Shown: positions 1,300 through 46,216 of the stretch, piece after piece | Numbering within the stretch: the first letter of the stretch is position 1 | Layout of the letters: each line of letters starts with the position of its first letter | Notes under the pieces: generated by a model | What the model was told of the DNA's origin: nothing | Database searches by the model: none | Seen by the model: the letters and a program-made list of their open reading frames with translations, nothing else | Assembly: GCF_003018255.1 (NCBI RefSeq) | Contig: NZ_CP027440.1 | Source of the DNA: Escherichia coli | Lineage (GTDB): Bacteria > Pseudomonadota > Gammaproteobacteria > Enterobacterales > Enterobacteriaceae | Reading direction: 5' to 3' (one strand) | Length of the DNA: 64,000 nucleotides | Position numbers and translations under genes: made by a program

Positions 1300-2508
1300 T
1301 TAAAGGGAGCCATGCGCCTCACGCAACATTTTCTGCTCTGGCTGACGAATCGTCGTAGAGAGCGCCAGTGACAGAATCAGCAGTGCGAAAATCACGTAGA
1401 AGGTCACATAGAAGCCGCCAAACAGTGAGGCGATAATCGACCCACAAATGCTGCCGATACCGAAACCGAGATAAATCACACCGTAGTTTTTCGCCAGGTT
1501 ATTGAGGCCGAAGAACTCACTGACCAGTGACGGGAACACCGTGATAGTGCCGCCAAAGTTAAATGCCACGCAGGCAATCGCTGCAAAGAACGTCACTGCA
1601 TTCAATGGTGCAAACAGCAGGGCCGCCATACCCACCAGCGATATCACCTGACCAATGGTGATAACACGGATACGGGCGATTTTGTCAGACAGAATGCCCA
1701 GCACCAGACGACCAGAAAGGTTGGCGATGGAAATAACCGTCACAGCATTGGCTGCGGAAATTGCATCAAGATGCGCCAGACTTTGAGCGATATCTTTCGC
1801 TACACCAATCACATACAGACCACTCATGCACGCAGTCAGGAACATAACCGCTAACATCCAGTACTGCGGTTTACGCATCGACTCTGCCAGGGTGTAGTCC
1901 TTCTCCACCACACCATTGCTGGTTTTCACTTCCTGTTTTGGTGCGTCTTTCATTAATGTTGCGCCAAAGACAATCATCACCAGCGCAATCGCTCCCCAAA
2001 TCACAAAGGTTTTTTCCAGACCCACCGTTTCCAGCAGCTGCGTGTCGATAAATTTGAAACCCAGGCTACCCAGACCATAAGAACCGATAGCGAACGCGGA
2101 GATCAGACCTTTACGCTCCGGGAACCACTTCACGCAGTTAGAGAGCGTCAGCAGGTAACCCGCGCCATCCGCCAGACCGACCAGCACACCGGCGCTTAAC
2201 CACAGCATCATCAGGTTGTCAGAATGCGCTGTCAGGAAGAAGCCTAATCCCAGCAAAATGCCGGAAGCCATAGTGACGCGTTTAACGCCAAAACGTTCCT
2301 GTAATTTCCCCGCAACAGAAGATGAAATTGCCAGCCCCAGACTTAACAAGCCGAAAGAGAAAGCGACCTGGCTTACCGGCGCATCCAGCTTGGCAGAAAG
2401 CGCGCCGTTAAACAGGCTCCAGGTATAAACCGACCCAAGGGCAAACTGGGTAATGATAGTACCGATGAGTGTCAACCAGCGGGTACGCTGATAATTTGAA
2501 GGTGTCAT
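1300..2508 (-). CDS. yhjX: MFS transporter YhjX (oxalate/formate antiporter family, pyruvate-inducible)
   Basis: 417-aa ORF; 12-TM MFS-like hydrophobic protein; likely start is the internal MTPSNYQRTRW... at 2508 (402 aa). Confidence 0.9.
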   Translation of the reverse strand: MTPSNYQRTRWLTLIGTIITQFALGSVYTWSLFNGALSAKLDAPVSQVAFSFGLLSLGLAISSSVAGKLQERFGVKRVTMASGILLGLGFFLTAHSDNLMMLWLSAGVLVGLADGAGYLLTLSNCVKWFPERKGLISAFAIGSYGLGSLGFKFIDTQLLETVGLEKTFVIWGAIALVMIVFGATLMKDAPKQEVKTSNGVVEKDYTLAESMRKPQYWMLAVMFLTACMSGLYVIGVAKDIAQSLAHLDAISAANAVTVISIANLSGRLVLGILSDKIARIRVITIGQVISLVGMAALLFAPLNAVTFFAAIACVAFNFGGTITVFPSLVSEFFGLNNLAKNYGVIYLGFGIGSICGSIIASLFGGFYVTFYVIFALLILSLALSTTIRQPEQKMLREAHGSL

Positions 2509-2591
2509 GGCAGTATTCCTGCAGTAATAAAAAGGAAAAATCTCTGCTGACAACCATAACGAAGTGCACTTTATGCCTGGGGAAAAACGGC

Positions 2592-2623
2592 ATGAAATGC
2601 CATCAGAACGGAATGAAATGCAT
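2592..2623. promoter_or_regulatory. Direct repeats ATGAAATGC(C/A) upstream of yhjX, candidate YpdB response-regulator site
   Basis: Two copies of ATGAAATGCx about 22 bp apart (reverse complement GGCATTTCAT), with a third degenerate copy; matches the YpdB repeat motif as I remember it. Confidence 0.45.
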
Positions 2624-2736
2624 TAGTTCAGGAATGAATGACTCGACAATTATTCACCAAATTTATTATTTAGTAAGTTAGCACCCACTATCGCCACATT
2701 AGTTGTTATTTATTGGTTTCAATTGTATCTATAACG

Positions 2737-25367: not shown

Positions 25368-26192
25368 TTACATATGCGCCGCGATTAACCGTTGGTTATC
25401 CTGGTACATTGCGAACAGGTAGTTGTTATAACTCTTCCCTTTAGTCGAGTAGCCCTTCAGCTTGTGAATCATCGCTGTGGCAGTCACTTCCTGATCCGCT
25501 TTACGCAGCTGTGCACGCGATTTACGGAACGAAGAGTAAGCCGGATGAGTATTCAGGTTAGTGACATAGGCGCTCACCGATTCTTTGACAGAACTAAACT
25601 GTGAGTACCCTTTCACTTTACCCGGCGCATTGGTACAACGTCCTTTCATGCATTTCATGCCGAACAGATTGTTGTTGTTGCGCGCCAGCTTTGACGTTCC
25701 CCAACCGCTTTCTGCTGCAGCCATCGTCGCCACCATACTGGTAGGGATAATGTCTACGCGTTCAAGCAAGGTATTCCACGGGATTTTTCGCGTATTACCA
25801 GACCACTTCACCTTGTAGCGTTTGGCGATGTCTTTCAGACGCGCACGCTCAGCAGGTGACCATTGGCCCTGATACTGTTTTGAAATCAGCCAGTTACGTT
25901 CCGCAGTAATGGCCGCATTTTGGCTGGTAATGTAAGGCATTACAGTCCGGAGAAACGCCTTTTTCCTTGGTGTTCCGGAAGGGTATTTTCGCAAATCAGG
26001 AAGTGAACTACTCTTTGCACTATTGCGAGAATACTCTTGTTTACTGCTTACCTGTTTATTACTAGCTTTAGTTAAGTGGGACTTTTGACTCGCTGTTGTT
26101 GTGTGCGTCTTCGCTAACACCTCACTCGAAAACACCAGAGTGAGTAACATAAGAATCATCGCCCCATATCGTCGTATGGGAGTCAAAATCAT
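25368..26192 (-). CDS. bax: Bax protein (putative glucosaminidase-domain protein)
   Basis: 274-aa ORF with N-terminal signal sequence; conserved location. Confidence 0.88.
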   Translation of the reverse strand: MILTPIRRYGAMILMLLTLVFSSEVLAKTHTTTASQKSHLTKASNKQVSSKQEYSRNSAKSSSLPDLRKYPSGTPRKKAFLRTVMPYITSQNAAITAERNWLISKQYQGQWSPAERARLKDIAKRYKVKWSGNTRKIPWNTLLERVDIIPTSMVATMAAAESGWGTSKLARNNNNLFGMKCMKGRCTNAPGKVKGYSQFSSVKESVSAYVTNLNTHPAYSSFRKSRAQLRKADQEVTATAMIHKLKGYSTKGKSYNNYLFAMYQDNQRLIAAHM

Positions 26193-45241: not shown

Positions 45242-46216
45242 ATGACAAAATTACAACTTAAGTACCGGGAGTTAAAAATTATCTCGGTAATCGCTGCCAG
45301 TGAAAATATCAGCCATGCCGCGACTGTACTTGGCATCGCACAGGCCAACGTCAGCAAATATCTTGCTGATTTTGAATCAAAAGTGGGTTTAAAAGTCTTT
45401 GACCGAACCACCCGACAGCTGATGCTCACACCTTTTGGCACCGTGCTGTTACCGTATATCAACGACATGCTGGACAGAAACGAGCAGCTTAATAATTTTA
45501 TTGCAGATTATAAGCATGAGAAACGTGGTCGGGTCACTATCTATGCACCAACCGGCATAATTACCTATTTATCCAAACATGTAATCGATAAAATTAAAGA
45601 TATCGGTGATATCACCTTATCGCTAAAAACCTGCAATCTTGAGCGTAATGCCTTTTATGAAGGCGTCGAATTTCCCGATGATTGTGATGTTTTAATCAGC
45701 TACGCCCAACCAAAAGATGAATCGCTGGTTGCCAGTTTTATTACCCAATATGCCGTAACCGCTTATGCCAGCCAGCGCTATCTTGAGAAACATCCCATTA
45801 GCCGTCCTGACGAACTCGAACATCACTCCTGTATTTTGATCGACTCGATGATGATCGACGACGCGAATATCTGGCGCTTCAACGTCGCCGGGAGTAAAGA
45901 GGTGCGGGATTATCGCGTGAAGGGAAATTACGTTTGCGACAACACGCAATCTGCGCTGGAGCTGGCACGAAATCACCTGGGGATTGTGTTTGCGCCAGAC
46001 AAAAGTGTGCAGAGCGACCTGCAAGACGGCACGCTGGTGCCCTGCTTTCAGCACCCGTATGAATGGTGGCTGGATCTGGTGGCTATCTTCCGTAAACGGG
46101 AATACCAGCCCTGGCGGGTCCAGTATGTGCTGGATGAAATGCTGCGTGAAATTCGCCACCAGCTTGCTCAGTCGCAGCAACTGCGGCCTGAACAAGCGGC
46201 GGAAAGCGAAGATTAA
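45242..46216 (+). CDS. yiaU: LysR-family transcriptional regulator YiaU
   Basis: 324-aa ORF with N-terminal LysR HTH; divergent from yiaT. Confidence 0.88.

What the first reader, a model, noticed from the sequence alone, without database searches (positions are those of the whole stretch)
2580..2640. Triple direct repeat ATGAAATGC upstream of yhjX
Three evenly spaced copies of ATGAAATGC(C/A)/ATGAATGAC sit in the yhjX promoter. This matches the YpdA/YpdB two-component target motif as I remember it, and the third copy may be an additional half-site.
Basis: partly seen in the sequence, partly recalled or inferred. Interest (0 to 1): 0.25.

Follow-up and report, generated by a model that had tools for sequence, protein, structure and literature searches.

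The report
YpdB operator of yhjX, three repeats
The repeats are the already-characterised docking sites where the pyruvate-responsive regulator YpdB switches on the E. coli transporter gene yhjX, and the weaker third copy is as strictly conserved across enterobacteria as the known sites, although the papers I could read do not describe it as a site.

Summary
Three copies lie exactly 21 bp apart on the + strand: ATGAAATGC at 2592-2600 and 2613-2621, and ATGAATGAC at 2634-2642. They sit upstream of yhjX, which is on the minus strand with its ATG at 2508. This is the top-scoring 21/21-periodic triple in the 64 kb window, and it beats all 100 simulated sequences.

Copies 1 and 2 are the published YpdB (PyrR) sites B and A of the yhjX promoter: GGCATTTCAT, an 11-bp spacer, then GGCATTTCAT. 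In this strain site A begins with T instead of G. About 30% of complete E. coli genomes carry this allele, and other genera tolerate T at that position.

The third copy is new in the sense that matters. In 80 species from more than 20 genera it sits in the same 21-bp register. Its conservation is 1.64 bits per position, against 1.69 for site B, 0.26 for the upstream flank and 0.44 for the adjacent spacer. It also lies inside the published 58-bp fragment, which its authors say covers all nucleotides protected from DNase I.

Published SPR data show it does not bind YpdB on its own. It differs systematically from A and B at motif position 4 (C, never A).

My best reading is a known LytTR operator with a conserved, auxiliary, low-affinity third half-site. 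Overall interest is low. The third site is a modest, testable addition.

The parts
1300..2508 (-). yhjX coding sequence (MFS transporter, the regulated gene). ATG at 2508..2506, stop at 1302..1300.
   Evidence: ORF list. RefSeq annotation of a 100%-identical genome. 98-99% identity to E. coli YhjX proteins.
2589..2601 (-). This is the promoter-proximal, published low-affinity YpdB site. The 10-mer GGCATTTCAT is 2601..2592.
   Evidence: Identical to K-12. Published as site B. Mean 1.69 bits per position over 81 distinct promoters.
2610..2622 (-). This is the published high-affinity YpdB site that must be occupied first. Position 1 is T here and G in K-12.
   Evidence: Mean 1.86 bits per position. 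Position 1 is G in 53 and T in 28 of 81 promoters.
2631..2643 (-). It is a degenerate third repeat 21 bp upstream of A. Consensus NG[T/C]C[A/G]TTCAT[T]CC.
   Evidence: Mean 1.64 bits per position, with 8 invariant positions in 81 distinct promoters. Lies within the published DNase I-protected fragment.
2588..2645 (-). Window equivalent of the 58-bp native part of the published SPR fragment, which the authors say covers all nucleotides protected by YpdB in DNase I footprints. It starts 2 nt upstream of C3 and ends 1 nt after B.
   Evidence: Table 1 and Methods of PMC4847170, mapped onto the window through the K-12 alignment.
2553..2558 (-). Inferred -10 hexamer TATGGT (TAnnnT), 30 nt downstream of the B 13-mer. 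This would place the B, A and C3 centres near -49, -70 and -91.
   Evidence: Conserved T, A and final T in the MAFFT profile. A TAnnnT hexamer lies 29-30 nt after B in at least 62 of 82 promoters. No consensus sigma-70 promoter was found by the scan. The transcription start is not mapped here, so this part is inference.

Best explanation
[quoted passage not shown] The published pathway for E. coli K-12 runs as follows. Extracellular pyruvate activates the histidine kinase YpdA. Phosphorylated YpdB binds as monomers, first to the distal high-affinity site A (here TGCATTTCAT). It then binds cooperatively and transiently to the proximal site B (GGCATTTCAT). This recruits RNA polymerase to a promoter with no good -35 element, giving a pulse of yhjX transcription.

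Shown here: the real conserved unit is 13 bp (KGCANTTCAT[T/G]CC), and there are three such units on the same DNA face at a 21-bp period, which is two helical turns. The third, distal unit (C3) is under purifying selection about as strong as that on site B.

Inferred: C3 is an auxiliary, low-affinity YpdB contact that is filled only once A, and probably B, are occupied. That would extend the protected region to 58 bp. It may also help explain why A behaves as the high-affinity, first-occupied site even though the A and B 10-mers are identical in K-12. The G-to-T change at position 1 of site A in this strain is a common natural allele at a degenerate motif position and is not expected to disable the site.
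For: Copies 1 and 2 are identical to the published sites A and B. The triple is the best 21/21-periodic repeat in the window and exceeds all 100 simulations. In all 80 species-level yhjX loci plus K-12 and the window, three blocks occur at an exact 21-bp period. Weighted information content is C3 1.64, A 1.86 and B 1.69 bits per position, against 0.44 and 0.65 in the spacers and 0.26 in the upstream flank. An independent MAFFT alignment gives the same profile. The published DNase I-protected fragment starts 2 nt upstream of C3 and ends 1 nt after B. In Atlantibacter, C3 is GGCGTTTCATTCC, which carries the three-T run of the A/B motif but still has G rather than A at position 4. Two distant YhjX-like loci also carry three TGCAT-type repeats at a 20-21 bp period, and one of them lies directly downstream of a LytS kinase and a LytTR regulator. 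The sister promoter btsT keeps a distal third copy across a recombination breakpoint. LytTR operators with three direct repeats are documented for RcoM1 and CoxC. The window's allele is exact in 1625 of 5421 complete E. coli genomes.
Against: Published SPR on a fragment containing all three repeats showed binding completely abolished when only site A was mutated, with C3 and B intact. It showed a single interaction event when only B was mutated, with C3 and A intact. C3 is therefore neither an independent site nor a substitute for B in vitro at up to 50 nM. C3 differs systematically from A and B at position 4: C in 78 of 81 promoters and never A, against A in 161 of 162 A/B sites. That could mean a different ligand. 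The primary paper (Fried et al. 2013) could not be read, so I do not know whether it already tested this flank. The 2016 paper says only that flanking nucleotides influence expression in vivo. The transcription start and -10 element are inferred, not mapped.
Confidence: 0.85

Rival explanations
1. C3 is functional but is not a YpdB site. On this reading it is a conserved site for another protein, or a DNA-shape or bending element that positions the A/B complex, and its likeness to the motif is partial convergence.
For: No YpdB-D53E binding to a fragment with C3 and B intact, and a single binding event with C3 and A intact. Position 4 is never A in C3 but almost always A in A and B, and position 3 is mostly T rather than C. 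So C3 is conserved as something different from A and B.
Against: The exact 21-bp phase with A and B holds in all 82 promoters. The shared invariant core is G2 and TTCAT.CC. The published YpdB-protected fragment ends 2 nt beyond C3. Third repeats of the same kind occur in distant YhjX-like loci and in the btsT promoter. No other regulator's consensus was recognised by eye (CRP, Cra and IHF were considered, from my own knowledge; no motif scan was run).
Confidence: 0.25
2. The third copy is a chance resemblance or a decaying relic with no function, and only the two published sites matter.
For: As a single sequence it matches site A at only 9 of 13 positions. The accessible literature describes two sites. 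SPR detects two interaction classes.
Against: Eight of 13 positions are invariant across 81 distinct promoters from more than 20 genera. Over the same sequences the adjacent spacer and upstream flank have decayed to 0.44 and 0.26 bits. Neutral sequence would not survive that divergence.
Confidence: 0.03
3. The G-to-T change at position 1 of site A in this strain weakens the high-affinity site, so the strain has an altered, weaker or slower, pyruvate response of yhjX.
For: The change falls inside the published 10-bp motif of the site that must be bound first.
Against: Position 1 is the least conserved motif position: G in 53 and T in 28 promoters at site A, and T is the commoner base at site B. 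The allele is exact in 1625 of 5421 complete E. coli genomes, including ST131 strains. I did not check whether the yhjX reporter used for UTI89 carries this allele.
Confidence: 0.1

Closest known systems
YpdB (PyrR) sites A and B in the yhjX promoter of E. coli K-12 (Fried et al. 2013; Behr et al. 2016, PMC4847170)
   Same: Same locus, strand, spacing and sequence. Site B is identical and site A matches at 9 of 10 positions. The whole 58-bp published fragment differs from the window at two bases.
   Different: This strain has T at position 1 of site A and A at position 1 of C3. The published model has two sites, whereas the conservation analysis here shows three phased 13-bp units.
Canonical LytTR operators (AgrA P2/P3, ComE, PlnC/PlnD, FsrA, VirR): a pair of 9-11 bp repeats separated by 11-13 bp
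   Same: Direct repeats with a period of about 21 bp, upstream of a weak -35 element, bound by monomeric LytTR domains on one DNA face (general description).
   Different: The motif sequence is specific to YpdB. Here a third, degenerate unit is conserved, whereas the canonical description is a pair.
Three-repeat LytTR operators of RcoM1 (Paraburkholderia xenovorans) and CoxC (Afipia carboxidovorans) (PMC11347149)
   Same: Three evenly spaced direct repeats at two-helical-turn intervals.
   Different: A different motif (TTCNNGCA). In CoxC all three repeats are needed for binding, the operator overlaps the -35 element and the protein represses. Here the third repeat is degenerate, distal and, by published SPR, not sufficient for binding. 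These regulators are not two-component response regulators.
BtsR (YehT) operator of the btsT (yjiY) promoter, the paralogous pyruvate system of E. coli
   Same: The control oligonucleotide published for BtsR (YehT) has a native part of the same 58-bp length. It holds [G/A]CCGCTCA, then ACCGCTTA 20 bp on, then ACCACTCA 21 bp on. The distal copy is kept across E. coli lineages despite a variable spacer and a replaced upstream flank.
   Different: A different motif and regulator. The distal spacing is 20 bp rather than 21. Which two copies are the published pair was not checked, because Kraxenberger et al. 2012 is not held.

Membership tests
YpdB/PyrR operator of PyhjX | Direct repeat of GGCATTTCAT separated by an 11-bp spacer | tested here: met
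   B is GGCATTTCAT (2601..2592), followed by the 11-nt spacer tccgttctgat, and A is TGCATTTCAT (2622..2613). The motif definition is from PMC4847170.
YpdB/PyrR operator of PyhjX | Located upstream of yhjX on its coding strand | tested here: met
   The repeats lie 81-135 nt upstream of the yhjX ATG at 2508, on the minus strand, in the yhjY-yhjX intergenic region.
YpdB/PyrR operator of PyhjX | Conserved in orthologous yhjX promoters | tested here: met
   All 80 species-level loci carry A and B at a 21-bp period. Information content is 1.86 and 1.69 bits per position.
YpdB/PyrR operator of PyhjX | Bound by phosphorylated YpdB and required for pyruvate induction | not testable with these tools
   Published for the K-12 sequence. 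Not tested for this strain's allele.
YpdB/PyrR operator of PyhjX | Cognate ypdA-ypdB genes present in the same genome | not tested
   I did not look for ypdA-ypdB in the window or in a matching genome.
Canonical LytTR operator | Two 9-11 bp repeats with an 11-13 bp spacer, placed upstream of the core promoter | tested here: met
   10-bp repeats with an 11-bp spacer. A conserved TAnnnT lies 29-30 nt downstream of B. The promoter position is inferred.
Three-repeat LytTR operator (RcoM1/CoxC type) | Three direct repeats evenly spaced at about two helical turns | tested here: met
   13-mers start at 2643, 2622 and 2601 on the minus strand, with spacing 21 and 21. The arrangement is conserved in 82 of 82 promoters.
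Three-repeat LytTR operator (RcoM1/CoxC type) | All three repeats contacted by the regulator and needed for function | tested here: inconclusive
   For: the fragment the authors say covers all DNase I-protected nucleotides spans all three repeats. Against: SPR shows no binding with C3 and B alone, and one event with C3 and A. No mutation of C3 is reported in the accessible papers.

The most novel reading that the evidence does not exclude
On this reading the yhjX operator is a conserved three-site LytTR operator rather than a two-site one. A deliberately sub-optimal distal half-site, with C instead of A at motif position 4, is filled last by a third YpdB protomer. It shapes the A-first binding order, the 58-bp footprint and the pulse-like output. 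The sister BtsR-btsT operator and distant LytS/LytTR-MFS modules share the same three-unit plan, so this would be a family trait of pyruvate-sensing LytTR regulators.
Probability: 0.5. Interest if true: 0.35.

Novelty: already known. Interest (0 to 1): 0.22.

Why it matters
The core feature is a textbook-level known operator, so finding it adds nothing new about E. coli regulation. The value lies in the third repeat. It is conserved as tightly as a proven binding site in more than 20 genera and sits inside the published footprint, yet it is absent from the current two-site 'AB-BA' model of YpdB action. If it is a third YpdB contact, it would refine the best kinetic model available for any LytTR response regulator. 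It could also help explain why two identical 10-mers have affinities more than 10-fold apart. Finally, it would give a better template for predicting LytTR operators, as 13-bp units in triplets, and for engineering pyruvate biosensors based on PyhjX.

Tried and rejected
- **Primary papers not held.** Fried et al. 2013 and Kraxenberger et al. 2012 could not be read. I therefore could not see the original footprints or flank mutagenesis.
- **Literature searches.** Searches for the motif string, for 'third repeat' with LytTR, and for PyrSR/PyrR found no description of a third YpdB site.
- **Protein search for distant orthologues.** The search for homologous proteins with YhjX listed almost only Escherichia/Shigella proteins of 89-99% identity, plus a few Citrobacter and Intestinirhabdus entries. 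It was useless for finding distant orthologues.
- **Distant YhjX-like loci.** The representative search gave six loci. Two (L082, L083) show triple TGCAT-type repeats. Four (L084-L087) have no LytS/LytTR neighbour and no convincing periodic repeat, and I set them aside as probably not YpdB-regulated.
- **Promoter scan.** The sigma-70 consensus scan found no promoter in 2480-2760. The -10 element was therefore inferred from conservation alone.
- **Inverted repeat I1.** The arms 2515-2528 and 2622-2635 were rejected as an RNA structure, because one arm lies upstream of the inferred transcription start.
- **Covariation.** I looked for covariation between C3 and A/B across species. The core positions are invariant, so there is no signal either way.

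Full report
**Where we are.** The window is an E. coli chromosome segment. Positions 2400-2850 match 5422 of 5426 complete E. coli genomes, and a 100%-identical genome annotates yhjX and yhjY on either side. yhjX lies on the minus strand: the ORF is 1300..2553 with its true ATG at 2508. Its product is 98-99% identical to E. coli YhjX. The 228-bp yhjY-yhjX intergenic region (2509-2736) holds the finding, so the repeats must be read on the minus strand.

**Checking the observation.** On the + strand, ATGAAATGC occurs exactly at 2592-2600 and 2613-2621, and ATGAATGAC at 2634-2642. The spacing is 21 and 21 bp.

The repeated unit is longer than 9 nt. The repeat finder gives a 15-nt pair at 93% identity. 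On the yhjX strand the units read:
- C3: AGTCATTCATTCC
- A: TGCATTTCATTCC
- B: GGCATTTCATGCC

Aligned without gaps, the third copy shares G2 and TTCATTCC with site A. I scored all 13-mer triples at 21/21 spacing over the whole window. This locus ranks first at 29 of 39. In 100 Markov simulations of the window the maximum was 27.

**What copies 1 and 2 are.** Behr et al. 2016 (PMC4847170) state that YpdB binds a direct repeat of GGCATTTCAT in PyhjX, named sites A and B. Their Table 1 gives the K-12 fragment CGCGTCATTCATTCCTGAACTAA-GGCATTTCAT-TCCGTTCTGAT-GGCATTTCAT-GCCG and the A and B mutants.

Aligning the window with K-12 shows the operator to be identical except for two bases. These are G to T at position 1 of site A and C to A at position 1 of C3.

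The published mechanism runs as follows. Pyruvate activates YpdA and then YpdB. The phosphomimetic YpdB-D53E binds site A first, with a KD of about 1.2 nM and slow kinetics. It then binds site B, with a KD of about 21 nM and fast on and off rates. RNA polymerase is recruited and the promoter clears quickly, which the authors call the 'AB-BA' model.

**The strain's allele.** An 81-bp query across the operator is matched exactly in 1625 of 5421 complete E. coli genomes, including ST131 strains. Most of the remainder differ at two positions, as K-12 does. Both differences fall on position 1 of a 13-mer. That is the least conserved motif position across species: site A has G in 53 and T in 28 promoters, and site B has T in 44 and G in 30. 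I therefore do not expect the T allele to be disabling.

**The third copy.** I fetched yhjX loci from 80 species-level genomes. The genera include:
- Escherichia, Citrobacter, Enterobacter, Buttiauxella and Kluyvera
- Lelliottia, Kosakonia, Klebsiella oxytoca, Cedecea and Atlantibacter
- Yokenella, Pluralibacter, Phytobacter and others

YhjX identity to the query ranges from 84% to 99%.

Every one of these loci has three blocks at an exact 21-bp period upstream of yhjX. The Henikoff-weighted information content per position is:
- C3: 1.64 bits
- A: 1.86 bits
- B: 1.69 bits
- the two spacers: 0.44 and 0.65 bits
- the 40 nt upstream of C3: 0.26 bits

A MAFFT alignment made without reference to the motif gives the same profile.

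The consensus sequences are:
- C3: NG[T/C]C[A/G]TTCAT[T]CC
- A: KGCA[T]TTCATTCC
- B: NGCANYTCATGCC

Positions 2, 6-10 and 12 are invariant in C3.

Two differences between the blocks are systematic:
- **Position 4.** It is A in 161 of 162 A/B sites, but C in 78 of 81 C3 sites and never A.
- **Position 11.** It is T in A (80 of 81) and in C3 (72 of 81), but G in B (81 of 81).

C3 is thus maintained by selection as a related but distinct unit. In Atlantibacter, C3 reads GGCGTTTCATTCC, which carries the three-T run of the A/B motif but has G at position 4.

**Does YpdB touch C3?** Two published facts bear on this, and they pull in opposite directions.

[quoted passage not shown] Its native part is 58 bp. 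It begins 2 nt upstream of the C3 13-mer and ends 1 nt after the B 13-mer, which corresponds to window 2588-2645. The A and B 13-mers together span only 34 bp, so about 22 further bp upstream, which include all of C3, lie inside the fragment the authors describe as protected.

Against contact: on that same fragment, binding was completely abolished when only A was mutated, with C3 and B intact. A single interaction event remained when only B was mutated, with C3 and A intact.

C3 is therefore not an independent site, and it does not replace B. The reading that fits both facts is a weak, dependent contact that fills only in the full complex, or a flank that helps define A as the high-affinity site. 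The authors themselves attribute the A/B difference to flanking nucleotides and note that flanks influence expression in vivo. I could not read Fried et al. 2013 to see which flanks they tested.

**Wider support for a three-unit plan.** Three further lines of evidence point the same way.
- **A distant module.** The locus L083 encodes a LytS kinase, a LytTR regulator and an MFS transporter 46% identical to YhjX. Before a TATAAT box it carries TGCATTTTAGTTC, then TGCATTTAAAGTTC 21 bp on, then TGTATCTCATTC 21 bp on. A locus with a 65%-identical transporter (L082) carries three TGCA-type units at 20 and 21 bp.
- **The sister promoter btsT in E. coli.** It holds [G/A]CCGCTCA, then ACCGCTTA 20 bp on, then ACCACTCA 21 bp on. 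The distal copy survives in lineages where the spacer differs and the upstream flank has been replaced, right up to the repeat.
- **Documented precedent.** LytTR operators made of three evenly spaced direct repeats are described for RcoM1 and CoxC.

**Promoter geometry (inferred).** No consensus sigma-70 promoter is found, as expected for an activator-dependent promoter. A conserved TAnnnT hexamer lies 29-30 nt after the B 13-mer in at least 62 of 82 promoters. In the window it is TATGGT at 2558..2553. That would put the centres of B, A and C3 near -49, -70 and -91, all on one DNA face.

**Verdict.**
- Copies 1 and 2 are a known operator, so overall novelty and interest are low.
- The third copy is not chance. 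It is as conserved as site B and in exact phase.
- My best explanation is an auxiliary low-affinity YpdB half-site that is missing from the published two-site model. I put this at about 0.5-0.6.
- The main rival, at about 0.25, is that it serves another factor or a structural role.
- A single C3 transversion mutant tested by SPR, footprinting and reporter assay would decide between them.

Noticed in passing
window 2566-2577 (minus strand), between site B and the inferred -10: There is a fourth motif-like element, GGCATAAAGTGC. In 30 of 82 yhjX promoters (9 exact), a match with at most 2 mismatches to GGCATGAAATGC sits 10-11 nt after site B. That sequence is the reverse complement of the site-B core GCATTTCATGCC. 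Exact copies occur in Kosakonia, Phytobacter, Yokenella and Pseudescherichia, and the element looks absent from the Enterobacter/Lelliottia group. It lies outside the published protected fragment.
   Followed up: partly
window 2589-2601 (site B) versus 2610-2622 (site A): The site B 13-mer GGCATTTCATGCC is itself a 5+3+5 palindrome (GGCAT/ATGCC). Position 11 is G in 81 of 81 B sites but T in 80 of 81 A sites. This invariant flank difference may underlie the published difference in affinity, which is more than 10-fold between otherwise identical 10-mers.
   Followed up: partly
window 2622 and 2643; E. coli population: The 81-bp operator exists as two main alleles in complete E. coli genomes. 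The window's allele (T at A position 1, A at C3 position 1) is exact in 1625 of 5421 genomes, including ST131. Most other genomes differ at two positions, as K-12 does. Both differences between the window and K-12 fall on the degenerate position 1 of a 13-mer.
   Followed up: partly
L088-L092 (btsT promoters of five E. coli genomes), alignment A2 columns 37-85: The BtsR operator region holds three motif copies: [G/A]CCGCTCA, then ACCGCTTA 20 bp on, then ACCACTCA 21 bp on. In two genomes the DNA upstream is replaced, and a 4-hydroxyphenylacetate monooxygenase reductase gene is annotated at the upstream end of the locus. The sequence diverges right up to the distal copy, which in those genomes becomes a perfect ACCGCTCA. 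The spacer next to it is polymorphic.
   Followed up: partly
L083 2829-2882 and L082 2428-2481: Two distant YhjX-like transporter loci from metagenome assemblies carry three TGCAT-type repeats at a 20-21 bp period upstream of the transporter. L083 has the LytS kinase and LytTR regulator immediately upstream. The organisms were not identified.
   Followed up: partly
window 25650-25661 (minus strand) and 46134-46142 (+): There are isolated exact copies of GGCATGAAATGC and ATGAAATGC elsewhere in the window, with no partner 21 bp away. They are probably chance: 4 matches were observed against 1.45 expected, and 6 of 100 shuffles reached 4.
   Followed up: no
window 2515-2528 and 2622-2635: A 14-nt inverted repeat, 86% complementary, links the yhjX ribosome-binding region with the spacer between A and C3. 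One arm lies upstream of the inferred transcription start, so it cannot form in the mRNA. I judged it to be chance.
   Followed up: partly
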